From assembly GCA_024672315.1 (NCBI GenBank), contig GCA_024672315.1_4714.1: a stretch of DNA of 64,000 nt; one strand, 5' to 3'. The DNA comes from a phage. Below the pieces are notes generated by a model that saw only the letters and a list, made by a program, of their open reading frames with translations, was not told the origin of the DNA and did no database searches. The translations under genes were made by a program, and so were the position numbers. Shown piece by piece: positions 433-63,933 of this stretch. Each line of letters begins with the position of its first letter. The stretch's first letter is position 1.

Positions 433-2019
433 TTATTTTTTTCCTCTTAAATTTACTACGTGTTCATTTAATCGAACAACTAATTGCACAAGCTGCTGAC
501 GGATATCTGCTGGACAAAGCATCAATCCTTTACGGTCAGCTGGGACTTTCTCAAGGATTTCCGGGCCTGCTGCTGAAACATCCCAGTCCCATTCACAAAA
601 CGCATCGGCCACCATGTTAATACCGACAACCGGTAAAGTTGTACGTTCATCTTCATACATGGCGTGTGGATACAATTTATTGACAGTAATGATCTCCTGT
701 GGTTTTAATTGGTGGATAATCTGATAAACATCGTCGCGTTTAACCTGGATACCTACGGTCAGCGCTGCCAGTTGAGGAAAACCCCAATGGTCTAATAAGC
801 AAGCTGCAATCGCTAACGCTTTTGCTTGATGCACGGCTTCAATCGGTGCCAGACTTCTCGCCGGAAGATGGCTATCAAGCAACCATTGTGCCAGTGCTCG
901 GCATCCACGGTTGATTGGTTTTAACTCAACGGTGTCATCATGTTTAGCGTACGTGTATCCGTCGTAACGTTTTGCGATACGCGCATACATGTCTTCAACT
1001 TTACCGTAAGGTGCTGTTTCGTCGACGTCGTGCAACACACGTTCCATCTGGGTGAGATACGCAATATCAAGAATGAGTACACGCGGTGAACGTTTATCTT
1101 TCACCATCAACGCATCAATCACGCCTTGACTGTCTTCATCTTGCGCGTTCCCTCGTGGGGTTTTCTCACGAATAGGTCCGCTGAAACGTCGTTCCGTACA
1201 AAGGTTATTCACATAGCTAAAGATCAGTGTTACCAGATGCGTACAACTCACCAACACCCCATCTTTAACGACAGGCTGTACGGCTTGGTCCAAGTCGCGT
1301 ACGGCTAGACGACGGACGATAGCTTGTGAACGCAACCAGCCTGGCACTTTCTCCGTCGACATGTAATCCACGGTCATCGACAGCGTGATCTTTTTATCAC
1401 CCGTCTGTGCGCGGATATAGTCTTCCAGTCGGTCGTAAGCAGCGATATCATGAATGCGTGTTTTATACATCAGTGACATAGCCACTTCTTCTTTACGGAC
1501 TGTCCCGTACGTTTTCCCTGCGTCAATCAGAAACTCTGCCCAAATCGGCACCATCAGACGGACGTAGATCGCTAACGCCGTTAACTCAACGTAATCATTT
1601 CGTAAATAGGTTTTCTCGGGTATATCATCCTCACCTAATGTTGTTTTCATGTCCGGCGGTAATTTTACCCAACCTGGGGTATTACACAATGCCAGAATCT
1701 CTTCATACACAACCGGTTTGTAAATTTCACCAACGGCGCGACTCAACTCCTCCATTTGTTGCTGTGGAGCAATGTAGTTATCCATCGCTTCACGTGCTTT
1801 AACGAACCCTTCGAAGATGTCGTCGATTCGACGTGGGTTCTTTTGTTCTATCCAGGCGAGATACTTGTTAATCTCCCGCATCTGATTGCTAGCCATATCC
1901 CCATCGATCTTGATGTAACCCTGACCTGAAAATTCCACGGTACGTCCATCACGGTGTTTGATGAGGTAGTGATCCAGCTTTTCTTTTCCTTGCGTCGTAA
2001 TGACGGGCACTATGTGCAT
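433..2019 (-). CDS. hypothetical protein
   Basis: ORF-track 433..2154; start moved to internal ATG at 2019 (MHIVPV...), which has AAGAGG 5-6 nt upstream. Early-promoter-like motif about 58 nt upstream. Confidence 0.6.
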   Translation of the reverse strand: MHIVPVITTQGKEKLDHYLIKHRDGRTVEFSGQGYIKIDGDMASNQMREINKYLAWIEQKNPRRIDDIFEGFVKAREAMDNYIAPQQQMEELSRAVGEIYKPVVYEEILALCNTPGWVKLPPDMKTTLGEDDIPEKTYLRNDYVELTALAIYVRLMVPIWAEFLIDAGKTYGTVRKEEVAMSLMYKTRIHDIAAYDRLEDYIRAQTGDKKITLSMTVDYMSTEKVPGWLRSQAIVRRLAVRDLDQAVQPVVKDGVLVSCTHLVTLIFSYVNNLCTERRFSGPIREKTPRGNAQDEDSQGVIDALMVKDKRSPRVLILDIAYLTQMERVLHDVDETAPYGKVEDMYARIAKRYDGYTYAKHDDTVELKPINRGCRALAQWLLDSHLPARSLAPIEAVHQAKALAIAACLLDHWGFPQLAALTVGIQVKRDDVYQIIHQLKPQEIITVNKLYPHAMYEDERTTLPVVGINMVADAFCEWDWDVSAAGPEILEKVPADRKGLMLCPADIRQQLVQLVVRLNEHVVNLRGKK

Positions 2020-51805: not shown

Positions 51806-51808
51806 GGG

Positions 51809-51988
51809 TTAGGCTCCACGAGGTCCCGTTAAGTTGCGTAATAGGAACGCAACCGTATCGTAACCAATATCGATGTTGAATTTATTTTTACCACTTACCC
51901 AGAAAGCACGCTTCTTGTGCGAGTTGGTAATTTCGTCAATGGCTTCCATGGAATAAAGAACGTTAACCGAGACCGTATCGCCGTCGAA
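51809..51988 (-). CDS. RNA polymerase beta'-like subunit (vRNAP-type), 3' exon encoding the catalytic loop
   Basis: Minus-strand in-frame translation from 51988: FDGDTVSVNVLYSMEAIDEITNSHKK...GPRGA-stop, matching beta' [20 protein letters not shown]; stop lies 3 nt before the beta-like gene's ATG. Not in the ORF track (no start codon). Confidence 0.65.
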   Translation of the reverse strand, partial: FDGDTVSVNVLYSMEAIDEITNSHKKRAFWVSGKNKFNIDIGYDTVAFLLRNLTGPRGA

Positions 51989-52507
51989 CCTTGTCTTCGC
52001 CTCAGGTCGCTACGCTGAGACCGCCTGCGTGGATACGTACATCACAGGCTGCTTGCACTTTCATGCAAGAGGAGACTATATCAAACCGTCAGCTTCACCT
52101 GCTACGGTAACCTACACTTCGAAGACGCTTGTCCTCTACAGGGTGGTAAATCCCTTAGTCGTTGAACCTGCGTTGTTTCACATTCTTGTTTGCAAGAATG
52201 CCGTATTGCTACGCAACAACCAGGCTGCTGATTGCCCATTATCACGCACCTTAGCACCGCTTACGCGGCTTTTCTTTCAGCCTAAGCCTCCGTGGGAGGT
52301 AGTGCATCTCAACTGTTGTTTCCGCCTTTCGGCACCTCATGGGTTGTTGAGCTTTAGGGGTTCCCAGCAATTCGTAGGTTTTTCAAGCACTCCCTTTCGG
52401 GAATACCGGACCAATTCAGTTAGTAAACAACATTATTACCATCCCTCATTCTTAAGGGTTAATTTTTTAAAATGATAAAATTAATGTGTTTTTGGGCTAA
52501 CTCGAAG
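51989..52507 (-). ncRNA. group I self-splicing intron in the vRNAP-type beta' gene
   Basis: Minus-strand P CGAATTGCTGGGAA (plus 52361-52374), Q AATCAGCAGC (52225-52234), R GGTTCAACGACTAA (52155-52168), S GATATAGTC (within 52072-52084), P9-like hairpin CTTGCA-tgaaag-TGCAAG (52052-52069). Exon nucleotide before the intron is U (52508); intron ends in G (51989). Splicing gives ...YLAGLGGD|FDGDTV.... Confidence 0.7.
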
Positions 52508-53974
52508 ATCACCGCCTAAACCGGCGAGGTATGGCGCAGGAACAATAGTCGTTTCTACGAACGAAGCATTAGGTAACCAGTCGGGGTATTCCCATGCGAT
52601 AAATCGTTCATCCGTTATTGGTTCCCAGTTACTATCCAGTTCGGTTTTCGGTTTTGCAGCGACGGTTGTACGCGCGTAACAGGTTAACGGGATAACGGAT
52701 TGCATACCCGATACCGGATAACGTGTTACCATCGCAGCCAGGTTATTCCAGTACTTATATCCGGCGATATAGATAAGCTCGGTGTAAGTAATGGGGTGAA
52801 CATCCGCACCAGGTTTATTCAACATCTCTGGGGGTAATTCACTCATACCACGGAATAACCGAAACGAATCGTTGTTCACATAGACGAGGCAAAGATAACG
52901 TCCATTAACCATGATAGGCTCGTTACGCACACCAGGATCGCTTAAGGTGTTCAATAAACGTTCTATTCCGTCCCATGTTGTAAAGTCATCGATGGTATCT
53001 GGGTCTAACGTGACACGTTCACGTTCCATCGTTTCGATATCGATAAGTTCAACTTCTGTAACATCACGGACAAATATTTCCTGCAAAATCCCCGTACGTA
53101 GCGCATGTTGCGTTACAGGGAGAGCAGCTTTACTCATCTGGTATAACCCTAACTGAACCGCGGTACAGGAAGGCTGGTTAGGCGACCCTAATACCTCCGT
53201 TGTGGGGTTAATTGCCGAAATAACGTTACGGGTTGAGTTCCAAACGCGACGTGAGCCGAACTTACCTTGGAAGATCCCTTTCTTACCCTGGAACATATCC
53301 AACAGTAAAGCGTAGATATCGTTAAATGTTCTCTGTAAGCTCCAACGTTGACCGTCGTAAACGGGATCAGAATAATCTTTTAATCCATCAGGGACGGTGT
53401 TAGAAATTGCAAGGAAACGACGATACAACTCCGTGATTTCTTGCTCGCTTTCATACCCACCTTCTTTTACTTCTATTTCACGTAAGCCTGCAGGCAATAC
53501 CAGTAAGTGACGGGTCATCGCTTTGAACATGTTCTCTTCGACAACTTTAATTCGTAGCTCTCGTTGAGCTGAACCCGTTGAAACGAACTTGATATCAGCG
53601 ACGTGTTGTGCAAAGAACCCGTATCCTGTTTGTCCTGTTAATGCATCAGACGCAACGAAGTCGCGTTGTTCAGGATCCCAACGAGCATACGCCTTTCCCG
53701 ACATGATATCACCATAGAGGTGTTTTAGTCGAATGAGGCGGTCGTAAATGACGGGATGCAGGATTTCAACTTTGCATTCAATCACCGCAAATCGACGGTC
53801 TCGATCTTCACTACCTGCGCTACCAAAGATGGTGTAAGAATAGAAACCATCATCGTGGAAATTACCGGTGCTTGGGTCACGAATGCTCATGCTCGTGATC
53901 TTGGGGAGAAAACGTAACTGCTGTTTATCGAGGTGTAAAATGCTAATGTTAAACGGCTCTCTGACTTTAGCCAT
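52508..53974 (-). CDS. RNA polymerase beta'-like subunit (vRNAP-type, N-terminal part), 5' exon
   Basis: DGFYSYTIFG...RRFAVIECKVEILHPVIY resembles beta' DGLFCARIFG...RRERMGHIELASPTAHIWF but lacks the Zn-finger cysteines; GKKGIFQGKFGSRRVWNSTRNVIS resembles [23 protein letters not shown]. Start set at ATG 53974 with AGAGGAG (ORF-track 54016). ORF-track end 52481 includes 27 nt of intron read-through. Confidence 0.7.
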
Positions 53975-54219
53975 GGAGACACTCCTCTTTACCACCACCG
54001 GCTGCGGCGGTATCATCTGAACACACGAGAGACGTAATGGGTGATGGCGTCACCCATCGCTTCCTTGCCTGATGCCAGGAAGTTATTAGGTTACGTACCG
54101 GCTTGATAAAATCAAGCAGGCGATGTGTGAAGTTACGCTTCAACATTATCAATGCCGAAGGTAAGCTTCGTGCATCACGTTCCAACGTAACATGGGAACG
54201 TATCGAACTGGAGGTATAC

Positions 54220-57200
54220 ATGGTAGATAAAACCCGTGTTGAGGGTGATGATAATTGGGATAACTGGGATGAAGACTTCTCCCTGGATCTCGATTTCAAC
54301 GAACCCAAAGACGATCGTAAACCGATAACACGCTTTGCGATAGGAGCGGTTAAAGGTGCCGCTGAGGATCTTACTTCCTACGAAAGAATGAAGGAGATCG
54401 CCAGAAACGCATTGCCTAAGGGCTACAGCGACGGTATGGATCTTATCGATTCCGCCGTCGGATCCACGAAGGAACTATACAATGAAGCCGTTCGTGACGT
54501 TCTTCCTAAGGTCCAAAGCTCAAAACGGTTAGCTGCACAACTGACCAAGAAATACCGCGCGAGCATGCCCGATTTCTCGAAGAAAATTCTCGAGCAATGG
54601 GAGCGAGAAGCCAAGGAAGAAGACGAACGTAAACATGCTGAAGAAACCCTTCGTCAACGCATGGCGAGCGCGGGGGACGATGAGATTGCCCGCAAGGTTG
54701 CCGAGGCATTAGGCGAATCAGCAAACCAAAACGCGGATCAGTTCGCTGAACAGCAAGCGAAAGAGAGTATCCGTGACGATATCGCTGATAAACGGTACGC
54801 TGTAACCAACAAACAAATGAGTGCGATGCAAGAAGGCGTCGCCAAGATGGTTGGTTTCAACAACGAATTCGCTGCACGTTACATGCGTAAAAGCCTGGAA
54901 CTGAAATATCGTTCCTTAGCGATTCAACGTGCAAGTTTTGATCAGCATAAAAAGTTAGCCGAAGTCTATATCGGTTTATTACAAAACATCCAGAAGAATA
55001 CGGCTTTACCTGATGCGGCTAAAGCGAAAATGTCGGAAGAATTCCGTCGTAGCGCATACCAACGTTTCTTTGGTAATGCGTTAGATGCGATGGGTTCTTT
55101 CGAGAACCGTTTCTTTGCCGATGTTAAGAAGAACCTTGCCACCAACGCATTAGGTGCTTTAAAAGGCGTCGTGTCTGGCGCAAACGATGCGTTATACGGT
55201 TTAAACGAAGCGCGTGACTCGATGTCCATGATGGACGGGATGGGGTCAGAAGGCGATATTAAGGAAATGCAAGGAAAGATGTTGGGTCAGTTCATTGGCT
55301 CAACTGTCGCACCATGGATGGCTAATAAAGGCAGGATGGCGTTACGTGATTTAGCAAAACGCCACCCCAATGCTAAATTCGCAAGTGCGTTAAAAGCCGT
55401 GGATCAAGGTGGTGAGGCTGCCGCTTACACGACGCGTAATCTCGGTAAACTGCTCCAGGAAGATATTCGTAAAAACGAATTCAATCTTAGCGATCCGTTT
55501 TACAAGCAATTAATACGCGGCGCAGGGCGTTGGGCGTTCAACATGGACAGCGGACGTAACTTCCGTGTGATGAACGACACCGCTGAAACGCTGGCGGAGC
55601 AAACGTCTTTCGACGGTTTAACCTACCGCAGCATCAACGAGGTTATTCCAGGCTTTCTTGCACGCATTCTGAAAAGCAGTGAAGGTATCCGCACCGGAAA
55701 CAGCGATCCTGACTACGAGGTCTATGACGGCATCAGCGGGCAATTCGTGTCTCAGCGCACGCGTGAGCAAAGCGTCAACGACACACTGTTTAACAAACGT
55801 ACGTTTGGTTATTACGCCAGCCGTTTCAACGAGGTTATCTCGGTCATCGATCCCGATAAGAAATTATCGGAAAAAGCCAGGAAGGCACTGGCTAAGCAGC
55901 TGGCACGAGATAGCGACGCAAACATCGCATTCGACCCAGCTCGTTTTACGGATGAAAGCAACTTCGATCGTAGTATTGACCGCGACGCTATTAAGGAACT
56001 TTCCACGTACTTTCGTGATCGTTACGGTATTCGTGACGATATCAACGATAAGGGCGAACGTCATCAGGTCATTGGAAACCGCGGGCAATATTACACGGAA
56101 CGTAACCGAGCTGACCTTCGCTACGGTAATCTGAAATCTTTACAGCCGGATATTCAGCGTAACCTTAACCTACTGAAACGTACTGGTGACGTCCAATATC
56201 TGGAACGTATTGGTATCGTAACGAGAAATAGCGACGGAAGCTACTCGGTTAATCACGATCGGTATTTCTCTGAAATCGATCGATACATCGACCGACCGGA
56301 GTACGCTGAACGTAACGACGTTAATACGCGATTAACCGCTCAGGAAACAAGAGCGCTGGCGTTGGGTTATCGTGACGCAAAACCATCAGCTGATGACGTC
56401 CAAAATGCGGGTCTGCCACACATCGGTCGTAAGGCTGTTGGAACAGTAACCGTTGATGAAAACATCGGCTACGATAAATGGTGGAACGACACAGGTGTTA
56501 TCACCACATCGCTTGAAGAACAGAATCGAGCGTGGCAAGAACTCTATCTCGAAGCGTTATCTGAAGCATCCGAACAACGTACTGAAATGCTTGCGTTACT
56601 GAAAGCCATTTCTGAGAAAGACCGGTCTAATAACGTTTCGTTGGACGGCGAAGATGTACCTGAAGGTACGGCACCCATTTCATTTATCGATCGTGCCAAA
56701 CAAAAACTCGGTGCACGCAACCCCTTTAAAGGCGGCCGTAATCTCCTCTGGAAAGGAATTAAAAATACCGCACGTTGGGGTGTTAAAGGCGCGCGCTGGG
56801 GTGCAGAACGCACGTTGGGTAGTTTGGTAAATTCTGGCCGTCGCATTATCAATTTCAACCGTTTTGTGTTCGGTGCATTATCCAAAGTCGATCAGGTTCC
56901 GTTTGACATTTACGTTAAAGGGGAATCCCAACCACGCATACTGGCTGCTAAACTTCGTCAGGGGTTATACTTCGACGAAGCGACAGGAAAAGCCGTAAAA
57001 CGGATGAAGGATATCAAAGGCCCACTCGTTGATGCTGATGGAAACATCGTAATCAGCAACGAGGATATCGAGAAAGGGTTGGTCACTCGCGCGGGTCGTG
57101 CCTTTGAGAATTCAGGACTTAAGGCGTGGGCACGTGAAGGTCTTAATGGAATCACGACGGTATTAAGTCTACCACGGATGTTAAAACGCGGTGCGGTCGA

Positions 57201-60200
57201 GATCTACAAACAGCTTGACAAGACGCCCGACGTTTACGTCAAGGGAGAATCAACGCCTCGTCTGTTGTCCATGGTGTTAGCAGCGGGTGGGTATTTCCGT
57301 CGGTCGGATGGACAAGTCATCAAAAATCTTGAAGACATCGATGGTGATGTTGTTGATGCACAAGGTAACGTCGTACTTACGCTTGCCGACATGCAGAAAG
57401 GACTTGTCGATAAATACGGTAAAGCGATTCGTCGCTTAAAAGAAAAGCTCATCAACTTCGGTGTAAAAGCTTTTACGTTACCGTTAACGCTGCTACGTAA
57501 GACAAAGGACATCCTTAAAGCCCTTCCAGGTAAAGCCGTTAACGGTCTACGACGGATGGGATTAAACTTCCAATCACCTGACGCATTACTGGTGGGAACA
57601 ACGTCGAGTATGGTAGATCGTCTCGATGCGATTTACCAGCTTCTTGACCAGCGTATGCCGGGTGGTGATAAGGATTACCGCGATTGGAATGGCGATGGTG
57701 TTCGAGAAGGATCGCTGGAAGACCTAAAACGTAAGCGTGAAGCCAAGGAAAACGGTAAGGACGACACCGGCAAAGATTCCAATAAAGGGGAAGAAAAGGA
57801 GAAGAAACGAGGATTACTCGGAAGCCTTTTCGATATGCTCGGCGATACCGCATTAGGCAAACGACTCATGGCGAGTCCGCTTGGAAAAATTCTAGGTGGT
57901 CTTGGGGCGGTGTTAAGCGGCGGTGCATCGTTAACCGGGTTGTTGGGCAAGGGTCTCATTAGTGGAACCGGCGCGCTGGTCAAGGGGGGACTAAGTGCGG
58001 CAGGATGGTTAGGACGTGGTGCGTTAATGGCGGGTGGGGCCGCGTTGAACGCCGTTGGTGGGTTATCGGGATTAGGTGCATTCCTTATCTCACCTGTTGG
58101 GCTTGCTATCGCTGGCGGTGCATTGGCTGCTTATGCTGGATGGAAGATCTATCAGCATTTCGCTGAGAAGCCTGACCCGATGCAGAAACTCCGTCTTATT
58201 GCATACGGTGCAAAAGGGGACGATAAAGACTTCAATAAGAAGCTGCTTGCGACAGAAACATACCTCACCGATCACGTGGTTATGACCGGGGATACCATCG
58301 GATTCGATCCGAAAGCGGATTCTGAAAAGATTCTCGAAATCTGGGAATTGTCCCTGGAAGATTCCGACCGAATGAACGAATGGAAACGCTGGTATCTGCA
58401 TCGTTTTATTCCTGTTTTCGCTCGTGCGTACAAACTCTGGAAAGAGCATATGCCGGACGAGAAGAAATACATGGAAATGGATAAATATCCGAACGGTGAG
58501 AACAAAGTGAAATGGTCGGAAGCGTTTATCTGGCCTTCCGATAGTCCTGACGGTCCGTATTACGTCGAAGCTAACCCGTTGGGTTCTTCTGGTGCGACGC
58601 GTTATATTGCTGGTCAAGACGTCAAAACCTTGATGCTGAAACAACTCGAAGCCATCAAGAAAGAGTACCAGAATCAGATTAAGCAATACACTCATGATGA
58701 GGCTATTGCTGATTGGTCACGGATGTCTGACACGCAACGTAAATCCGTTGCGCCTAACGCATTACGCGGTCAGAAAGCGTCGTTACGTTTTAACGATAAA
58801 CGTTACAACAGTGCTGGCGCTAAAGGACGACAGAAGCTTGACGCAACCGCGGTTATTGAAAGCGTAGACCGTCGTGGTAGAAAATGGGTTGCCGGTGGAT
58901 ACATCGATGAACTCACCAGTCTCCGTGTTCGTGCGTACGGTATCAAGGTTCCGTTGTTAAGTCAGATAAAAGTGCTGATGGAACTCGAAGACGCTGTAGA
59001 ACCTGGCGTAGTCGCTGAAGGTAAAGGTGTTAAATACGGTGGCGATCTTGTTGCGCTCTACAAGAAATTCGCGACGAAGTTCGGAAGAGACGTTAACAGC
59101 AAGCGGGATCAGGATATCTGGTTCGCTTGGATGAATAACCGTTTCCTGCCCGTCTTTTTAACCTATTACCAACAAGTTAGCGACATGGGCGGTCAAGGAC
59201 TTCTGTCCGACGTGGTACAGAACCTGAAAGACAGCCAACGCTGGGAAATCGGTGAAGCACTTGTCGCAACGCAATACCGTGATGAGAAAGGTACACTGCA
59301 GCCTGTATGGTCCTGGAATAGTTGTGGTTTCTCCGGTACTGAAGCTAACACCACCAGCAGTTCAACAAAGAGCCAGCTCGATCTGTTAAAAGAATATGCG
59401 GATAAAGAGAAGGTTCGTGAGAAGAACGCGGAAGCATCGCAAGAGGATGCCGATAAATTATCGAAGATCCAAGAGCTGATGATGAAGCAGGCTGGGTACG
59501 AGAAGAAAGACGGTGTCTGGCAGAAGAAATCACGCATTACCGGCGGGATGAGTAACGCCGAAGCGAATTACAACCCCAATGGGAATAGGGTAGGTGCAAG
59601 CAGCTTTACTGCTTCGGCTACTTCCAGTGCTGGGTTGGGGTCAACCGGCGATCTTACTGGATTGCCTAACATGGGCTTACAGAAACCTGCAATGGGACCA
59701 GGTCCTGAAGCTGGACGTCGTGCGCTTGTTAAATCCGCTGTAAAACGCGGCATTACCGATCCAATGGAAATGGCGATGTTCCTCGCGAACATCGAACATG
59801 AATCAGGGAACTACACTCACGTACGTGAGGGGAACTATAAGACACCAGAGCGTCTTAAACAGGTCTTCCCTTACAAATTCCGTGATGTACAGGATGCCGC
59901 ACAGACGATCAGCATGGGGCCGGAAGCGGTATTCGAACGTGTGTATGGTAATCGTAAAGATCTCGGGAACACACAGAAAGGGGACGGGGCGAAGTATTTA
60001 GGACGTGGCTTCATTCAGGTTACCGGTAAAGCTAACTACGCTCGTCTGTCCAAGACCTTGAATAAGGATCTTGTCAGCGATCCGACATACCTGGAAACGC
60101 CGGAAGGTGCGGCGGAAGGTAGTGTCGCATGGTGGCTCAACCGAGGTAACGTGTTACGCGATCCCGCAAAACGGGGTGATGTACGCCAAGTTCGTTATCT

Positions 60201-60885
60201 GGTTAACGGCGGTTTTAACGGATTACGCGATGTTGAACAACGTTCAGCTTATTGGATTCAGGCGGCTAAGAATGGCACCCTGAAGAGAATGATGGACGAG
60301 TTATCAGGGTCAACATCAGACGATCAAGCTGAAGGACCGACCACTGCCGAACAGGTGAAGAACGAAGCAGCACAAGAGGCAAACGGAACACCTGCTGTAA
60401 GCAACGATCCGCAAGCCCCAGTATCTTCTACTACCCCTGAAGCTAAACCGTCTGCGGCTGCCGGGACGGCCCCAGCACCTGGAGAAGCATCACCAACGCC
60501 TGGAAGTTTCGAAACAGCAAAAGCCGCGGCAGGACAACCGACATCAACTCCAGCACCTAGCGATTTGCCGTCAAACCCGGGCGCAAATCGAGGGATATCG
60601 GTTCCGAATACGCCTGCACAGGTTGCGCAGTCTGCGACACAAACATCGGTTGCAAGTGAGAACTTCTACGGTAGCGCAGGTGAAATTCTCCGACAGCAGC
60701 TGACCACGCAGCAGAACATCGAGAAGAACACCGGTAGAACGAATGAACTTATTTCGGAATTAATCCAAGCCGTTAAGGGTTCTTCTATCGGTAAGGGTTC
60801 TGCAGGTCCTTCTCAACAACAGACGATGTCGCTACCTAATCGTCCGCAAGGAATCTCTCCAACACGGACAAGGTACGCACAGTAG
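54220..60885 (+). CDS. giant virion-associated protein with C-terminal GH19-type lysozyme domain (phiKZ gp181-like)
   Basis: ORF-track 54103..60885 begins at a TTG; ATG at 54220 has GGAGG 7 nt upstream. A Gly/Ala/Leu-rich hydrophobic segment (LGGLGAVLSGGASLTGLLGKGLISGTGALVKGGLSAAGWLGRGALMAGGAALNAVGG) lies mid-protein; the C-terminal domain contains IEHESGNYTHVREG and YLGRGFIQVTGKANY, typical GH19 lysozyme/chitinase signatures. Gene order (RNAP beta, beta', giant hydrolase) matches phiKZ gp178-gp180-gp181. Confidence 0.8.
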   Translation: MVDKTRVEGDDNWDNWDEDFSLDLDFNEPKDDRKPITRFAIGAVKGAAEDLTSYERMKEIARNALPKGYSDGMDLIDSAVGSTKELYNEAVRDVLPKVQSSKRLAAQLTKKYRASMPDFSKKILEQWEREAKEEDERKHAEETLRQRMASAGDDEIARKVAEALGESANQNADQFAEQQAKESIRDDIADKRYAVTNKQMSAMQEGVAKMVGFNNEFAARYMRKSLELKYRSLAIQRASFDQHKKLAEVYIGLLQNIQKNTALPDAAKAKMSEEFRRSAYQRFFGNALDAMGSFENRFFADVKKNLATNALGALKGVVSGANDALYGLNEARDSMSMMDGMGSEGDIKEMQGKMLGQFIGSTVAPWMANKGRMALRDLAKRHPNAKFASALKAVDQGGEAAAYTTRNLGKLLQEDIRKNEFNLSDPFYKQLIRGAGRWAFNMDSGRNFRVMNDTAETLAEQTSFDGLTYRSINEVIPGFLARILKSSEGIRTGNSDPDYEVYDGISGQFVSQRTREQSVNDTLFNKRTFGYYASRFNEVISVIDPDKKLSEKARKALAKQLARDSDANIAFDPARFTDESNFDRSIDRDAIKELSTYFRDRYGIRDDINDKGERHQVIGNRGQYYTERNRADLRYGNLKSLQPDIQRNLNLLKRTGDVQYLERIGIVTRNSDGSYSVNHDRYFSEIDRYIDRPEYAERNDVNTRLTAQETRALALGYRDAKPSADDVQNAGLPHIGRKAVGTVTVDENIGYDKWWNDTGVITTSLEEQNRAWQELYLEALSEASEQRTEMLALLKAISEKDRSNNVSLDGEDVPEGTAPISFIDRAKQKLGARNPFKGGRNLLWKGIKNTARWGVKGARWGAERTLGSLVNSGRRIINFNRFVFGALSKVDQVPFDIYVKGESQPRILAAKLRQGLYFDEATGKAVKRMKDIKGPLVDADGNIVISNEDIEKGLVTRAGRAFENSGLKAWAREGLNGITTVLSLPRMLKRGAVEIYKQLDKTPDVYVKGESTPRLLSMVLAAGGYFRRSDGQVIKNLEDIDGDVVDAQGNVVLTLADMQKGLVDKYGKAIRRLKEKLINFGVKAFTLPLTLLRKTKDILKALPGKAVNGLRRMGLNFQSPDALLVGTTSSMVDRLDAIYQLLDQRMPGGDKDYRDWNGDGVREGSLEDLKRKREAKENGKDDTGKDSNKGEEKEKKRGLLGSLFDMLGDTALGKRLMASPLGKILGGLGAVLSGGASLTGLLGKGLISGTGALVKGGLSAAGWLGRGALMAGGAALNAVGGLSGLGAFLISPVGLAIAGGALAAYAGWKIYQHFAEKPDPMQKLRLIAYGAKGDDKDFNKKLLATETYLTDHVVMTGDTIGFDPKADSEKILEIWELSLEDSDRMNEWKRWYLHRFIPVFARAYKLWKEHMPDEKKYMEMDKYPNGENKVKWSEAFIWPSDSPDGPYYVEANPLGSSGATRYIAGQDVKTLMLKQLEAIKKEYQNQIKQYTHDEAIADWSRMSDTQRKSVAPNALRGQKASLRFNDKRYNSAGAKGRQKLDATAVIESVDRRGRKWVAGGYIDELTSLRVRAYGIKVPLLSQIKVLMELEDAVEPGVVAEGKGVKYGGDLVALYKKFATKFGRDVNSKRDQDIWFAWMNNRFLPVFLTYYQQVSDMGGQGLLSDVVQNLKDSQRWEIGEALVATQYRDEKGTLQPVWSWNSCGFSGTEANTTSSSTKSQLDLLKEYADKEKVREKNAEASQEDADKLSKIQELMMKQAGYEKKDGVWQKKSRITGGMSNAEANYNPNGNRVGASSFTASATSSAGLGSTGDLTGLPNMGLQKPAMGPGPEAGRRALVKSAVKRGITDPMEMAMFLANIEHESGNYTHVREGNYKTPERLKQVFPYKFRDVQDAAQTISMGPEAVFERVYGNRKDLGNTQKGDGAKYLGRGFIQVTGKANYARLSKTLNKDLVSDPTYLETPEGAAEGSVAWWLNRGNVLRDPAKRGDVRQVRYLVNGGFNGLRDVEQRSAYWIQAAKNGTLKRMMDELSGSTSDDQAEGPTTAEQVKNEAAQEANGTPAVSNDPQAPVSSTTPEAKPSAAAGTAPAPGEASPTPGSFETAKAAAGQPTSTPAPSDLPSNPGANRGISVPNTPAQVAQSATQTSVASENFYGSAGEILRQQLTTQQNIEKNTGRTNELISELIQAVKGSSIGKGSAGPSQQQTMSLPNRPQGISPTRTRYAQ

Positions 60886-60895
60886 TCATTAGTTA

Positions 60896-60916
60896 AGGGC
60901 GGGAGATTCCCGCCCT
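60896..60916 (+). terminator. putative intrinsic terminator
   Basis: AGGGCGGGA-gat-TCCCGCCCT followed by CTTCTTG, 10 nt after the stop of the giant gene. Confidence 0.45.
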
Positions 60917-60934: not shown

Positions 60935-63076
60935 ATGGGTATTCTTGTTCAAAACGCCCTAATAACCAAACAAGCGTTTTTATTACCTGGCGATAGCAGC
61001 ACGCTTAGTGCTGACATGATTAAAGCGAGACATACACCGTATTCCTACGATAACGTCGATGATACCACCTTAGGTGGGAACTGGGTGCTTAACCCGCCAC
61101 CGCAATATACCAAATTTGCCGACATCAAAGAACGCCGACGTGCGGTTATGCCGGGATCAACGGGCATGGGCCGAGGCTATAGTGAAAGCATTAACAGCTT
61201 TAAAGAAGTCGTTACCTTACGATTCGGTAAACCTCGCTTTACAGGCGCAAGTATCTTCTTTACCGATTTCTACGACGCCGATGTTGCCGTAACGGTTAAA
61301 ACCGGTCGCGATCCCGGTATTCTTTATTACGCAGCCAAAGCGTATACCACCGTTCTTTCTTACCTCACACCGCTACCTTACCTGTATATGGTTGGACGTA
61401 TCGGTCGATATTTCCTGGGTAAGCCTACCAGTCAATATTACTATCAAGTACCAACCATGCACGTGTATTGGGCGTCTTTCCAGACGCTGGTAAACCAAAC
61501 AGCGATAAACATGGGTCTTATCGCCGGTGCCGGTAAAGATAAAGGCTACGTGGAAGAAGGGGGTACCGTACTCCATCAATATTCAATCGGTGGTCAGAAC
61601 GTTGAAGAATTCATCAACTACGCCTCTAAGACGCTACCGGGGATTTATAAGAAAGGTGGTGGGATCGATATCTACCAGATTGCAACACGTCGTCAGCGTA
61701 TACAAAACGCATGGGTACGTCGTATTCAATCCATGATGGAAAACGATTACTCGTCTTACGAGGAGTTCTGGAACGATCTTGATAAACGACTTGATAGCGG
61801 AGCATTTCCATCGGATGTAACCGGTCGTACGTTAACGCAGTATCTCGCCGACACACAGAAGTCTGCTGTTTACAGTGCGACAGCTGGTGATAATAAACAA
61901 ACGATGGACGACCTTTTATTCGGAAGGGCCTCATACACCAACAAGGATGCTGATGCTAACTTCAATGTCTCAGCGGCTACCTCCGACGGCGGTACGTCAA
62001 CACAGAGTCAGGGTACAACAGCCAATGTCGGTAATTCAACATCGGGGACAACGCAGGCTTCAACAGCAGCATCCACGGCTGGAGGCGCGAACGTACAGAG
62101 CAAAGGAATCGGACAAACGAATGCAGCCGAAGAAGCTACGTTTCTTGATCTGATGGACGCTGAATTGGCCGACGGTGCTCAGTTCATCAGTTTTCGAGTC
62201 GATTCTGTCACCAGTGTAACCGAAACGTTTTCAAACAGTGCTTCAGAAAGTTCAATCGCACAGACGATGAACAGCCGTGCACAAGCGAACATCGAACGTC
62301 GTTTCACCCTCTCCGGCGGTAATACAGGTTGGGCTGTACTGGACGAAGCCATCAAAGCCGGTTCCGACCTCGTTAATGGCGCTATTTCCGGGATGGGTTT
62401 GGATGGTATTTTTGGTGCCTTCATGGGTTCCGGCTTCGCTGACATTCCGAAATTCTATTCTGGGTCTTCGGTAAGTCTACCGCGTGCGGATCTGACGATG
62501 GAATTGCGTTCCTGGAGTGGGGATCGTTGGTCGATCTTTACGAACCTCATGGTACCTCTTTTAGCGATCCTTGCAGGTGGTTTACCTCAGGCTACCGGTA
62601 AATCGTCCTACGGGATGCCATTCATGTGTGAGTGTTATATTCCCGGTAAAGTCCAGATTAAAATGGGTCTTATCGATAACATCACTGTGACGCGTCATGT
62701 TGGGAACGTACCATCAACGCGTGAGCGATTACCGTTGGGTATCGATGTCAGCTTCAGTGTTTATGACCTGTCGTCCATCGTCGCCATGCCGATCACAACG
62801 ACAGCCGCATCGATCGCAAAACTGGATCCTCGTGGCTTCTTAAGTGATCTTCTTGCTGATGATACCCCACTCAACAACTATCTTGCTGTATTATCGGCAT
62901 TGACACTTACGGAACAAGTTTACATGATTCCTGATTTAAGTCGTCGTATGCATAAAACCATGGCCGATATCGATAGTTTCTGGAGCAAAGGTAATTTTGC
63001 TAGCTGGTTATCTGACACCATGCCAGGCAGGATAGCATCAGGGCTGTTATGGAAACGTACAGAACGACCGTTCTGA
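60935..63076 (+). CDS. hypothetical protein, probable virion protein
   Basis: 713-aa ORF directly downstream of the giant hydrolase gene; S/T/G-rich central region. Confidence 0.5.
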   Translation: MGILVQNALITKQAFLLPGDSSTLSADMIKARHTPYSYDNVDDTTLGGNWVLNPPPQYTKFADIKERRRAVMPGSTGMGRGYSESINSFKEVVTLRFGKPRFTGASIFFTDFYDADVAVTVKTGRDPGILYYAAKAYTTVLSYLTPLPYLYMVGRIGRYFLGKPTSQYYYQVPTMHVYWASFQTLVNQTAINMGLIAGAGKDKGYVEEGGTVLHQYSIGGQNVEEFINYASKTLPGIYKKGGGIDIYQIATRRQRIQNAWVRRIQSMMENDYSSYEEFWNDLDKRLDSGAFPSDVTGRTLTQYLADTQKSAVYSATAGDNKQTMDDLLFGRASYTNKDADANFNVSAATSDGGTSTQSQGTTANVGNSTSGTTQASTAASTAGGANVQSKGIGQTNAAEEATFLDLMDAELADGAQFISFRVDSVTSVTETFSNSASESSIAQTMNSRAQANIERRFTLSGGNTGWAVLDEAIKAGSDLVNGAISGMGLDGIFGAFMGSGFADIPKFYSGSSVSLPRADLTMELRSWSGDRWSIFTNLMVPLLAILAGGLPQATGKSSYGMPFMCECYIPGKVQIKMGLIDNITVTRHVGNVPSTRERLPLGIDVSFSVYDLSSIVAMPITTTAASIAKLDPRGFLSDLLADDTPLNNYLAVLSALTLTEQVYMIPDLSRRMHKTMADIDSFWSKGNFASWLSDTMPGRIASGLLWKRTERPF

Positions 63077-63132: not shown

Positions 63133-63933
63133 TTAACCTAACGTCACTGTCGGTAAATCAGGATAAAGTTTCTTCAATCCCGCCATCGTGGTGGTAGTCG
63201 TATAATTCTTACCCATCACAGCAAGAGATGCGTATTTCCTACTGCGGGAGAAAAGGGAATAAAACCCACTGGATGTTTCCATCCACATCGTGAGGAGTTC
63301 TGCATCCTTACCGTGATAGTTCGTTTTACCCCATCCGGGTTTAAACGCATCGGCAAAATCAATTAAACGCGAGGCTTCAGCGTCGTATTCTTTAAGGGTA
63401 AGGTACGATGGGATACGGTAGTTACGGAACAGTAACGTAATGAGTTCAGGGACAACGCTACGGGCACGTTCAGCCGTAATGAGTTCGGTGATAACAGCAG
63501 CTGTACGGAAATCGCCGTTAAGACCAACGCTGCTTAACGATTCCGCTAAAGTGGTCGCCATCGCCACTTTATCCTCCGCTGACCCAGAGTCATACAGACT
63601 ACGTACATCGATATAGTTGCCTGCTAATGCGGCTTGACGAATCAACGACGTGACAACCGTCCGGTTCGTCTTATAGTCGTTGTAGCTGAATTCGGTTCGC
63701 GTTTTCCCTTGATCCTCGAGATACCGATCAACAATCGTCGACAGTTTATAATACTCATCGCCAGACATCAGACTATCGAGAAGCTTAACATTTCCATCTT
63801 TATCGATAAGCTTCCCTAACGCACCATTGGATTGCTGGTTAATGGTGCTGTAAATCTGGTCTTTTACTTGCGATAGGATGTTATCGGTTGACGATATATT
63901 CAGGCCAGTAACATCTTTGATCTTATTCATCAA
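63133..63933 (-). CDS. hypothetical protein
   Basis: 266-aa ORF near the window edge; the true start could lie beyond the window. Confidence 0.4.
   Translation of the reverse strand: MMNKIKDVTGLNISSTDNILSQVKDQIYSTINQQSNGALGKLIDKDGNVKLLDSLMSGDEYYKLSTIVDRYLEDQGKTRTEFSYNDYKTNRTVVTSLIRQAALAGNYIDVRSLYDSGSAEDKVAMATTLAESLSSVGLNGDFRTAAVITELITAERARSVVPELITLLFRNYRIPSYLTLKEYDAEASRLIDFADAFKPGWGKTNYHGKDAELLTMWMETSSGFYSLFSRSRKYASLAVMGKNYTTTTTMAGLKKLYPDLPTVTLG

What the first reader, a model, noticed from the sequence alone, without database searches (positions are those of the whole stretch)
54220..60885. Giant virion protein combining a glycine-rich hydrophobic segment with a GH19-type lysozyme domain
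The C-terminal region has the GH19 hallmarks (EHESG...GRGFIQVTGKANY), and a long G/A/L-rich hydrophobic stretch lies upstream. This combination is typical of ejected tail or inner-body proteins that breach the cell wall during infection.
Basis: partly seen in the sequence, partly recalled or inferred. Interest (0 to 1): 0.5.

Follow-up and report, generated by a model that had tools for sequence, protein, structure and literature searches.

The report
Jumbo-phage tail protein with lysozyme domain
This 2,221-residue gene is the Goslar-type counterpart of the known phiKZ gp181 giant tail protein, which carries a wall-cutting enzyme and a membrane-seeking segment to help the phage breach the cell envelope; the reading is correct but the thing is already known.

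Summary
A single ORF (ATG 54220 to TAG 60885, + strand, 2,221 aa, about 245 kDa) has a 113-residue G/A/L-rich block (aa 1196-1308) upstream of a GH19 domain (aa 1836-2058).

The window is a 96.4%-identical relative of E. coli jumbo phage Goslar. The gene is the orthologue of Goslar gp204 (deposited as "putative chitinase", RefSeq "tail fiber protein"). It is also the positional and sequence orthologue of phiKZ gp181, between the gp180-like virion RNA polymerase subunit and the gp182-like tail-tube initiator.

All nine active-site residues of the solved GH19 muramidase PaGH19Lys are kept, including E1861 and E1870.

In this family of 2,000-3,800 aa proteins the lytic module varies at one position: SLT in most, otherwise GH19, M23, VanY or CHAP.

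Published Goslar virion mass spectrometry finds the orthologue at about 3-8 copies. Cryo-EM assigns the spike to other proteins.

Best reading: a tape-measure-like protein in the tail lumen, ejected at infection, built like T5 pb2. The virion and GH19 parts are well supported. The lumen location, ruler role and membrane insertion are inferred.

The gene and family are already known, so interest is low to moderate.

The parts
54210..54214 (+). Ribosome-binding site GGAGG, 5 nt before the ATG
   Evidence: Read directly from the sequence.
54220..60885 (+). CDS of the giant gp181-like tail protein (2,221 aa plus TAG stop)
   Evidence: ORF list. 96.4% nt identity to Goslar_00232 / HOV27_gp204. PHROG 3201, E = 1.5e-295. 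Start confirmed by homologue N-termini.
54325..55719 (+). N-terminal region (aa 36-500) predicted as long helices
   Evidence: The AF2 model is 79% helix over aa 1-500, including one helix spanning aa 118-259, but pLDDT is mostly below 50. Collinear with phiKZ gp181.
55732..56319 (+). Confidently folded alpha/beta domain (aa ~505-700), function unknown
56884..57189 (+). Internal repeat R1, copy a (aa 889-990; 'DIYVKGE..PR...G.Y...I....DI.G.VVD..GN.V' module)
   Evidence: 41% identity to copy b, E = 9e-24. Both copies are present in gp181. AF2 gives a small beta-rich module, pLDDT 70-80.
57211..57510 (+). Internal repeat R1, copy b (aa 998-1097)
57667..57804 (+). Highly charged K/E/D linker (aa 1150-1195) before the hydrophobic block
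   Evidence: Composition table: 39% charged in the window aa 1101-1200.
57805..58143 (+). G/A/L-rich hydrophobic block (aa 1196-1308). The last 42 residues (aa 1267-1308, nt 58018-58143) are uncharged and long enough for one or two membrane spans
   Evidence: A segment with KD >= 1.6 is present in 97 of 120 homologues, at the equivalent position in the 30 whose coordinates were listed.
58174..58671 (+). Middle helical domain R2, copy a (aa 1319-1484)
58909..59346 (+). Middle helical domain R2, copy b (aa 1564-1709)
59725..60393 (+). GH19 (endolysin-type) peptidoglycan hydrolase domain (aa 1836-2058)
   Evidence: PHROG 181 endolysin, E = 7.8e-53. PDB 9EOI 3e-24, 7R6S 4e-23, 9MS6 3e-21, 4OK7 7e-19. 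The Pfam GH19 match is below threshold (18.1 against 25.5 bits).
59800..59802 (+). Codon of E1861, equivalent to E51 of PaGH19Lys (proposed catalytic base)
   Evidence: Alignment; residue roles from PMC12329726; position checked.
59827..59829 (+). Codon of E1870, equivalent to E60 of PaGH19Lys (catalytic acid; E60Q had no observable activity at 1 nM, some at higher concentration)
60394..60669 (+). P/S/T/A/Q-rich low-complexity spacer (aa 2059-2150)
   Evidence: 53-54% P+S+T+A+Q. The Goslar virion peptide AAAGQPTSTPAPSDLPSNPGANR (aa 2102-2124) maps here.
60670..60882 (+). C-terminal segment: a stretch read as helical (not modelled), Q/S/P-rich stretch and a short basic end (…GISPTRTRYAQ). Candidate anchor to the hub / tube-initiator
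   Evidence: Homologues, including gp181 (…PLPIRLR), end in a similar pattern of Pro, hydrophobic residues, then [RK][RK]. The motif is in 54 of 120 C-termini against 4.7% of random windows. The anchor role is inference by analogy with T5 pb2.
60935..63076 (+). Context: co-directional downstream gene, orthologue of phiKZ gp182 / Goslar gp203 (tail-tube initiator / spacer ring)
   Evidence: 25% identity, E = 5e-58 to KTN4_222. Structural role from cryo-EM papers.

Best explanation
The gene encodes the Goslar-type orthologue of phiKZ gp181, a giant, low-copy structural protein of the contractile tail that combines three functions.

Proposed layout. A long, mostly helical N-terminal part (about 1,190 aa) lies in the tail-tube lumen and probably serves as the tape-measure / scaffold on which the tube is built. 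The conserved C-terminal end is anchored near the gp203-like tube initiator and the hub.

Proposed sequence at infection. After sheath contraction and loss of the spike, the protein leaves the tube C-terminus first. The GH19 muramidase domain (E1861/E1870) cuts MurNAc-GlcNAc bonds locally, so the tube or channel can cross the peptidoglycan. The uncharged G/A/L block (aa 1267-1308, in 3-6 copies) then inserts into a host membrane and helps form the conduit for DNA and co-injected proteins.

Status of each step.
- Shown here: orthology, synteny, domain architecture, an intact GH19 active site, and conservation of the hydrophobic block across the family.
- Shown by others for the Goslar or phiKZ orthologue: presence in virions, essentiality, and muralytic activity of the phiKZ SLT version.
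- Inferred: lumen location, ruler function, order of exit and membrane insertion.
For: Identity and synteny.
- 96.4% nt identity to the Goslar gene over its full length.
- Collinear BLASTP alignment to phiKZ-type gp181, E = 2e-45 and 6e-37, running through repeat R1, the hydrophobic block and R2.
- The flanking genes are the gp180 orthologue (E = 4e-106) and the gp182 orthologue (E = 5e-58).

Enzyme.
- GH19 endolysin-type matches in PDB.
- H1860, E1861, E1870, Y1909, Q1933, T1935, V1995, N1996 and R2008 correspond to the nine active-site residues of PaGH19Lys, a proven muramidase.

Family.
- 120 listed homologues of 1,500-3,856 aa carry SLT, GH19, M23, VanY, CHAP or Phage_lysozyme2 domains.
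- In the four members scanned, the lytic domain sits at the same relative position (gp181 SLT 1885-1978, P0041 M23 1918-2010).
- 1,380 cluster representatives share the middle domain; nearly all of the 150 best listed are 2,000-3,600 aa.

Virion.
- Goslar Table S4 lists YP_009820915.1 with 34 peptides, 24% coverage and an estimated 3.4-8 copies, labelled 'Tail protein'.
- Peptides map to aa 393-406, 739-753, 771-787 and 2102-2124.

Not the spike. Goslar hub, spike and inner-baseplate density is fully assigned to other proteins (gp13, gp48, gp203, gp62 and others), and the same holds in phiKZ.

Tape-measure view. [quoted passage not shown]

Shape and fit. The N-part is 65% helix in the AF2 model. 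Three to six copies would fill only 13-26% of a 68 A lumen.

Analogy. T5 TMP pb2 has the same order of parts: coiled coil, a 46-residue hydrophobic stretch, a muralytic domain, and a C-terminal coil docked in the hub.
Against: - No structure shows the protein in the tube lumen. Neither the Goslar nor the phiKZ cryo-EM study models or mentions it.
- Length does not fit a simple ruler. 2,221 aa as one helix would be 333 nm, against about 180-188 nm of tube. phiKZ has a slightly longer protein (2,237 aa) but a shorter tube (43 against 46 rings).
- No Pfam or NCBIfam tape-measure family matches.
- There is no upstream frameshifted chaperone pair; the upstream neighbour is on the opposite strand.
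- AF2 confidence for the helical N-part is low (mean pLDDT 51).
- The two GH19 tryptic peptides searched for were not found in the stored part of the MS table. At 24% coverage this is uninformative.
- The hydrophobic block shows no GxxxG enrichment.
Confidence: 0.7

Rival explanations
1. A capsid-internal ejection protein, analogous to T7 gp16. It would be packaged in the head with the virion RNA polymerase and inner-body proteins, ejected ahead of the DNA, and would build a trans-envelope channel while its lytic domain cuts the wall.
For:
- The gene lies directly beside the virion-RNAP genes and near the head-protease and head-protein genes.
- Chimalliviruses package and inject many proteins.
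- The low copy number (about 3-8) fits either location.
- Neither cryo-EM study locates the protein.
Against: - The gene is transcribed divergently from the RNAP / head genes. It is co-directional with the tube-initiator gene, 49 nt upstream of it.
- The Goslar authors label it 'Tail protein', and the phiKZ literature treats gp181 as a tail or baseplate component.
- The architecture matches T5 pb2, a tail-lumen protein.
Confidence: 0.12
2. The needle-like cell-puncturing device at the centre of the baseplate, the older view of gp181 as a trimer analogous to T4 gp5.
For: Reviews list gp181 as a 'needle-like cell-puncturing device / putative trimer' and homologues as a 'putative cell-puncturing protein'. 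Like T4 gp5, it carries a lysozyme-type module.
Against: - Cryo-EM assigns the spike, spike cap and hub to Goslar gp13/gp48 and to phiKZ gp164/gp163.1/gp101, with all central density accounted for.
- The AF2 models of aa 1-1195 and 1310-1835 show no beta-helix or OB-fold, only helices and small modules.
Confidence: 0.04
3. A tail fibre or receptor-binding protein, as in the RefSeq and PHROG 3201 annotation.
For: RefSeq product name 'tail fiber protein'. PHROG 3201 is labelled 'tail fiber protein'.
Against: - No fibre-like repeats or beta-helical domains are predicted.
- The protein has an internal hydrophobic block and a lytic domain.
- About 5 copies per virion.
- The Goslar study labels another protein (gp25) as tail fibre in its table and proposes the DUF7941 proteins as host-recognition filaments.
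- The label is probably propagated annotation.
Confidence: 0.02
4. The phage's end-of-cycle endolysin (lysis from within), with the large N-terminal part unrelated to that role.
For: The domain belongs to the GH19 endolysin subfamily. Some database records call homologues 'endolysin'.
Against: - A 245-kDa structural protein present in virions is not a typical endolysin. It sits beside a baseplate gene (gp203) and the virion-RNAP genes; no lysis genes were identified nearby, though this was not specifically searched.
- The family swaps lytic modules while keeping the scaffold. This fits virion-associated lysins.
Confidence: 0.03

Closest known systems
Goslar gp204 (Goslar_00232; QBO64023.1 / YP_009820915.1)
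   Same: Orthologue: 96.4% nt identity, 46 of 2,221 residues different, the same length from the ATG and the same neighbours. Detected in Goslar virions.
   Different: Only point differences. The deposited CDS starts 31 codons upstream at a GTG, which distant homologues do not support.
phiKZ gp181 (represented here by KTN4_221), structural peptidoglycan hydrolase
   Same: - Same size (2,237 against 2,221 aa) and same position between gp180 and gp182.
- Collinear homology through the N-part, R1 x 2, the hydrophobic block and R2 x 2.
- The lytic module sits at the same place.
- Essential tail protein with proven muralytic activity.
   Different: The lytic module is an SLT / lytic transglycosylase domain (PF01464, aa 1885-1978) in gp181 and a GH19 muramidase here. 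These are unrelated Pfam families, so the module was exchanged in place. Overall identity is about 25%.
Bacteriophage T5 tape-measure protein pb2
   Same: [quoted passage not shown]
   Different: - No detectable sequence homology.
- T5 is a siphophage, and pb2 is 1,219 aa with a metallopeptidase.
- pb2 is cleaved between the hydrophobic stretch and the enzyme; processing here is unknown.
- The extra R1 and R2 modules are specific to the gp181 family.
GH19 endolysins PaGH19Lys (9EOI) and SPN1S endolysin (4OK7)
   Same: Same catalytic domain, with all nine active-site residues conserved. The expected chemistry is hydrolysis of the MurNAc-GlcNAc bond.
   Different: Those are free enzymes of about 200 aa that act from within at lysis. 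Here the domain is embedded near the C-terminus of a virion protein.
T7 gp16 and T4 gp5 (virion lysins)
   Same: Virion-borne peptidoglycan-cleaving modules used at entry.
   Different: Different location and fold. gp16 is a capsid core protein with an N-terminal transglycosylase (from general knowledge). gp5 is the spike with a lysozyme insert. There is no homology to the scaffold of this protein.

Membership tests
phiKZ gp181-like giant virion peptidoglycan hydrolases (PHROG 3201) | Sequence homology of the non-enzymatic scaffold | tested here: met
   PHROG 3201 E = 1.5e-295 over aa 11-1170. BLASTP to gp181 2e-45 and 6e-37, collinear from aa 35 to about 1620. The profile of the middle region finds 1,380 cluster representatives.
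phiKZ gp181-like giant virion peptidoglycan hydrolases (PHROG 3201) | Conserved genomic position between the gp180-like vRNAP subunit and the gp182-like tube initiator / spacer | tested here: met
phiKZ gp181-like giant virion peptidoglycan hydrolases (PHROG 3201) | Central hydrophobic block followed by the duplicated middle domain and a C-proximal muralytic module | tested here: met
   The module here is GH19 instead of SLT, a variation also seen in other members.
phiKZ gp181-like giant virion peptidoglycan hydrolases (PHROG 3201) | Incorporation into the virion | not testable with these tools
   Shown by others for the 98%-identical Goslar protein by LC-MS/MS. Not testable for this exact phage.
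GH19, endolysin subfamily | Catalytic glutamate pair nine residues apart, plus the other active-site residues | tested here: met
   E1861/E1870 with H1860, Y1909, Q1933, T1935, V1995 (Ile in 9EOI), N1996 and R2008.
GH19, endolysin subfamily | Score above Pfam PF00182 gathering threshold | tested here: not met
   18.1 bits against a 25.5 cut-off, and only profile positions 103-141 matched. Direct comparison with solved GH19 endolysins gives E down to 3e-24, and PHROG 181 gives 7.8e-53. My reading, not tested, is that the Pfam model (named 'Chitinase class I') fits chitinases better than endolysins.
GH19, endolysin subfamily | Muramidase (not chitinase) activity on peptidoglycan | not testable with these tools
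   Inferred from the PaGH19Lys biochemistry.
Tail tape-measure proteins | Match to a curated TMP family (Pfam / NCBIfam) | tested here: not met
   No TMP family matches even at permissive E-values.
Tail tape-measure proteins | Long, predominantly helical protein encoded next to hub / tube-initiator genes | tested here: inconclusive
   65% helix in the AF2 N-part but mean pLDDT 51. Adjacent to and co-directional with the tube-initiator gene. No frameshifted chaperone pair upstream.
Tail tape-measure proteins | Protein length proportional to tail length (about 1.5 A per residue) | tested here: not met
   2,221 aa corresponds to 333 nm, against 180-188 nm of tube. About 1,200-1,250 residues would suffice. 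phiKZ has a longer protein and a shorter tube. Only part of the protein could act as the ruler.
Tail tape-measure proteins | Located in the tail-tube lumen with the C-terminus docked in the hub | not testable with these tools
   Not resolved in the Goslar or phiKZ cryo-EM studies. Volume arithmetic shows it would fit.
T4 gp5-type central spike | OB-fold plus beta-helical needle forming the spike density | tested here: not met
   No such fold in the AF2 models. The spike is assigned to other proteins in Goslar and phiKZ.

The most novel reading that the evidence does not exclude
In nucleus-forming phages the injected DNA ends up inside an early-infection (EPI) vesicle, thought to derive from the inner membrane, and how that vesicle forms is unknown. 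The conserved unit 'uncharged G/A/L block plus R2 helical domain' has no known fold and is duplicated together in some family members. It could be the virion factor that inserts into the inner membrane at the tube tip and shapes or seals that membrane into the EPI vesicle, rather than merely forming a pore.
Probability: 0.1. Interest if true: 0.75.

Novelty: already known. Interest (0 to 1): 0.25.

Why it matters
The result corrects the public annotation. "Chitinase" and "tail fiber protein" are both misleading names for a tail-internal, muramidase-bearing, tape-measure-like protein.

It documents that the gp181 scaffold keeps one slot in which unrelated wall-cutting modules are exchanged: SLT, GH19, M23, VanY and CHAP. 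That is useful for mining virion-associated lysins and for understanding host adaptation of jumbo phages.

The protein remains the largest structural component that neither the Goslar nor the phiKZ atlas has placed. It is therefore a defined target for the open question of how chimalliviruses cross the envelope and start the EPI vesicle.

None of this is surprising to a specialist.

Tried and rejected
- Pfam on the whole protein and on four sub-regions, and NCBIfam on the whole protein. Only a sub-threshold GH19 hit appeared, and no TMP, fibre or membrane-protein family.
- Sequence search of the full protein against PDB. Only the GH19 domain matched, so no solved structure contains the scaffold.
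- Glycine-zipper idea for the hydrophobic block. GxxxG occurs 3 times against 7.5 +/- 2.0 in shuffles, and GxxxGxxxG not at all, so the idea is rejected.
- Simple ruler arithmetic. It does not fit the whole protein, and the Goslar / phiKZ comparison goes the wrong way.
- A whole-protein BLAST self-comparison missed the internal repeats. They appeared only when the segments were compared directly.
- Promoter and terminator consensus scan around the gene. Counts were at or below shuffle expectation, so it was uninformative; these phages use their own RNA polymerases.
- Text searches of the Goslar and phiKZ structure papers, the RAY core-genome paper and the EPI-vesicle papers for gp204, gp181 or tape measure. 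The protein is not discussed in any of them.
- The 201phi2-1 proteome paper could not be retrieved.

Full report
OBSERVATION

The six-frame ORF list shows one very long ORF, 54103..60885 on the + strand.
- The ATG at 54220 is preceded by GGAGG at 54210-54214.
- The N-termini of homologues at 88%, 47% and about 26% identity begin at the equivalent methionine.
- The GTG 31 codons upstream, used in the Goslar record and by gene callers, has no such support.
The product is 2,221 aa, about 245 kDa, and ends at TAG.
- 'EHESG' is at aa 1859 and 'GRGFIQVTGKANY' at aa 1928.
- The G/A/L-rich stretch is aa 1196-1308. The 100-residue window 1201-1300 is 64% G+A+L and 8% charged, Kyte-Doolittle means reach 1.91, and the last 42 residues carry no charge.

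IDENTITY

- The gene is 96.4% identical in DNA over its full length to Escherichia phage vB_EcoM_Goslar. There it is Goslar_00232 'putative chitinase' in GenBank and HOV27_gp204 'tail fiber protein' in RefSeq.
- Against Goslar there are 181 synonymous and 46 non-synonymous codon differences.
- The N-terminal 1,200 aa find 277 phage records by tblastn. The listed ones are mostly jumbo phages of 200-320 kb from Pseudomonas, Erwinia, Vibrio, Serratia, Aeromonas, Salmonella, Klebsiella and Ralstonia. They include the phiKZ-group 'structural peptidoglycan hydrolase'.
- Pairwise BLASTP against the phiKZ-type protein (KTN4_221, 2,237 aa, i.e. gp181) is collinear from aa 35 to about aa 1620 at 25% identity, E = 2e-45 and 6e-37.
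- The neighbours match as well. The upstream divergent gene is the gp180 orthologue (virion RNA polymerase subunit, 38% identity, E = 4e-106). The downstream co-directional gene is the gp182 orthologue (25% identity, E = 5e-58).
- This is the positional and sequence orthologue of phiKZ gp181.

ARCHITECTURE (aa numbers from the ATG)

1. aa 1-35: acidic leader.
2. aa 36-500: predicted long helices. They make 79% of this stretch, including one 142-residue helix, but at low confidence.
3. aa ~505-700: a confidently folded alpha/beta domain (pLDDT 75-90), next to the near-invariant IPGFLARI...RTG motif.
4. aa 701-888: low-confidence helices.
5. aa 889-990 and 998-1097: a duplicated small module, R1 (41% identity, E = 9e-24).
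6. aa 1150-1195: a K/E/D-rich linker.
7. aa 1196-1308: the hydrophobic block.
8. aa 1319-1484 and 1564-1709: a duplicated helical domain, R2 (28% identity, E = 4e-6; the AF2 blocks covering the two copies have pLDDT 62-95), separated by a disordered linker.
9. aa 1836-2058: GH19.
10. aa 2059-2150: a P/S/T/A/Q-rich spacer.
11. aa 2151-2221: a stretch read as helical (this part was not modelled) and a short basic end.

THE ENZYME

- Pfam's GH19 model scores below threshold (18.1 against 25.5 bits).
- Solved GH19 lytic enzymes match strongly: 9EOI 3e-24, 7R6S 4e-23, 9MS6 3e-21 and 4OK7 (SPN1S) 7e-19. PHROG 181 'endolysin' gives 7.8e-53.
- The 9EOI paper lists the active site as H50, E51, E60, Y103, Q127, T129, I187, N188 and R197. 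It shows the enzyme is a muramidase and that E60Q had no observable activity at 1 nM, with some at higher concentration (PMC12329726).
- In the HMMER alignment these residues correspond to H1860, E1861, E1870, Y1909, Q1933, T1935, V1995, N1996 and R2008. All are conserved, with one Ile-to-Val change.
The domain should be an active peptidoglycan muramidase, and 'chitinase' is a misnomer.

THE FAMILY

- The protein search returned 120 listed relatives of 1,500-3,856 aa. Their precomputed Pfam domains are mostly SLT (PF01464). GH19, Peptidase_M23, VanY, CHAP, Phage_lysozyme2 and Peptidase_S74 also occur.
- In the four members scanned here, the lytic domain lies at the same relative position: gp181 SLT 1885-1978, P0041 M23 1918-2010, P0006 GH19 2091-2153, and P0028 VanY plus SLT.
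- GH19 versions are common among Erwinia Ea35-70/RAY-like, Ralstonia RSL2/RSF1-like, Burkholderia, Aeromonas and other jumbo phages. Their homology to gp181 has been noted in print.
- A profile of the middle region finds 1,380 cluster representatives at E <= 1e-3 and 998 at E <= 1e-30. Nearly all of the 150 best, which are the ones listed, are 2,000-3,600 aa with the domain at the same place.
- 97 of 120 relatives have a segment with KD >= 1.6; in the 30 whose coordinates were listed it lies immediately before the first R2 domain. Members with an extra R2 copy have a second hydrophobic segment in front of it.
- Many C-termini share the pattern proline, hydrophobic residues, then [RK][RK]. It is present in 54 of 120 C-termini against 4.7% of random windows, and gp181 ends …PLPIRLR.

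WHERE IT SITS AND WHAT IT DOES

- A 2026 preprint on the Goslar virion reports LC-MS/MS of purified particles. YP_009820915.1 has 34 peptides and 24% coverage, with an estimated 3.4-8 copies per virion. It is labelled 'Tail protein' and is not part of the atomic model.
- I found its peptides for aa 393-406, 739-753, 771-787 and 2102-2124 in the stored table. Both the N-part and the far C-terminal spacer are therefore in virions.
- The same paper and the phiKZ structural atlas assign the spike, spike cap, hub and both tube-initiator rings to other proteins. In Goslar, all hub/spike and inner-baseplate density is assigned.
- This contradicts the older description of gp181 as the needle-like puncturing device.
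- The remaining plausible location is the tube lumen, which helical averaging blurs.
- Arithmetic. The Goslar tube is 46 rings x 39.16 A = 180 nm, or 188 nm with the two initiator rings. That needs about 1,200-1,250 helical residues, whereas 2,221 residues would span 333 nm.
- phiKZ has a slightly longer protein but only 43 rings. At most part of the protein can be the ruler, and this test is not met in its simple form.
- Three to six copies would occupy 13-26% of a 68 A lumen, so the protein fits.

MECHANISM PROPOSED

The layout parallels T5 pb2: helical part, hydrophobic stretch, muralytic domain, C-terminal coil.
- pb2 fills the tube and docks its C-terminal coil in the hub.
- It is expelled on triggering. 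Its 46-residue hydrophobic stretch is proposed to insert into a membrane.
- It is proposed to release its muralytic domain into the periplasm.

By analogy, I propose the following sequence:
1. The conserved C-terminus is anchored at the gp203/gp48 region.
2. After contraction and spike loss the protein exits C-terminus first.
3. GH19 opens the peptidoglycan locally.
4. The uncharged block inserts into a membrane to help form the conduit.

Orthology, architecture and the intact active site are shown here. Virion presence, essentiality and muralytic activity of the SLT version are shown by others for orthologues. Lumen location, ruler role, exit order and membrane insertion are inferences.

RIVALS

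- A capsid-internal ejection protein (T7 gp16-like) is not excluded, because nobody has located the protein and the gene adjoins the virion-RNAP / head cluster. Against it, the gene is divergent from that cluster and co-directional with the tube-initiator gene 49 nt downstream. The literature also treats it as a tail protein.
- The spike, tail-fibre and end-of-cycle endolysin readings are each contradicted, as set out in the rival entries.

NOVELTY

- The gene is deposited and annotated in Goslar.
- The family was characterised biochemically in phiKZ.
- GH19 versions have been noticed before.
- The tape-measure idea is in print.

I did not find the following described: the explicit one-slot exchange of lytic modules across more than 1,000 relatives, the R1 and R2 duplications, the hydrophobic-block-plus-R2 unit, and the shared C-terminal end. 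These are refinements rather than a new kind of system.

The most novel reading left open is that the hydrophobic / R2 unit takes part in forming the inner-membrane-derived EPI vesicle of chimalliviruses. The origin of that vesicle is unexplained. I found no evidence for or against this.

Noticed in passing
window 52052-52436 (- strand), with 51806-52051 and 52481-54016: A group I intron (Rfam RF00028, 63.6 bits, E = 9e-14) interrupts the gp180-like virion RNA polymerase subunit at the catalytic (N)ADFDGD motif. Exon 1 ends …LAGLGGD and exon 2 reads …FDGDTVSVNVLYS…, aligning with gp180 …LGADFDGDTVSFNAVYS…. The 511-aa ORF is therefore only exon 1.
   Followed up: partly
window 52413-52506 compared with Goslar L001 8718-10287: Relative to Goslar, this phage lacks about 1.57 kb next to the intron. 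That stretch in Goslar encodes Goslar_00230, which has HNH_3 and NUMOD1 domains (an intron-associated homing endonuclease). Here the intron is present without its endonuclease gene.
   Followed up: partly
window 54127-54219: Database versions of this protein (Goslar CDS; cluster P0001, 2,252 aa) start at a GTG 31 codons upstream of the ATG. Homologues at 88% identity and lower start at the ATG-equivalent Met, and only the ATG has a GGAGG site.
   Followed up: yes
window 60897-60915: A perfect 7-bp GC hairpin (GGGCGGG-AGATT-CCCGCCC) followed by TCTTCTT lies in the 49-nt gap between this gene and the tube-initiator gene, just before that gene's GAGG site. It could be a terminator, attenuator or stability element. 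The consensus scan did not list it.
   Followed up: no
window 60935-63076 (+) and 63133-63933 (-): The downstream genes have no Pfam match. The first is shown here to be the orthologue of phiKZ gp182; by its position in the Goslar record it corresponds to Goslar gp203 (tail-tube initiator / spacer ring). The second corresponds by position to Goslar gp202 (lower baseplate wedge). So the finding sits at the edge of a baseplate gene cluster.
   Followed up: partly
homologues P0018, P0030, P0037 (family members, not in the window): Some relatives carry a third copy of the R2 domain; in P0018 and P0030, the two whose segments were listed, it has its own preceding hydrophobic segment. This suggests that 'hydrophobic segment plus R2' is a duplicable unit.
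   Followed up: partly
window 58090-58695 (- strand): A 201-aa antisense ORF overlaps the glycine-rich block. It is probably a by-product of the G-rich codon composition and was not examined.
   Followed up: no
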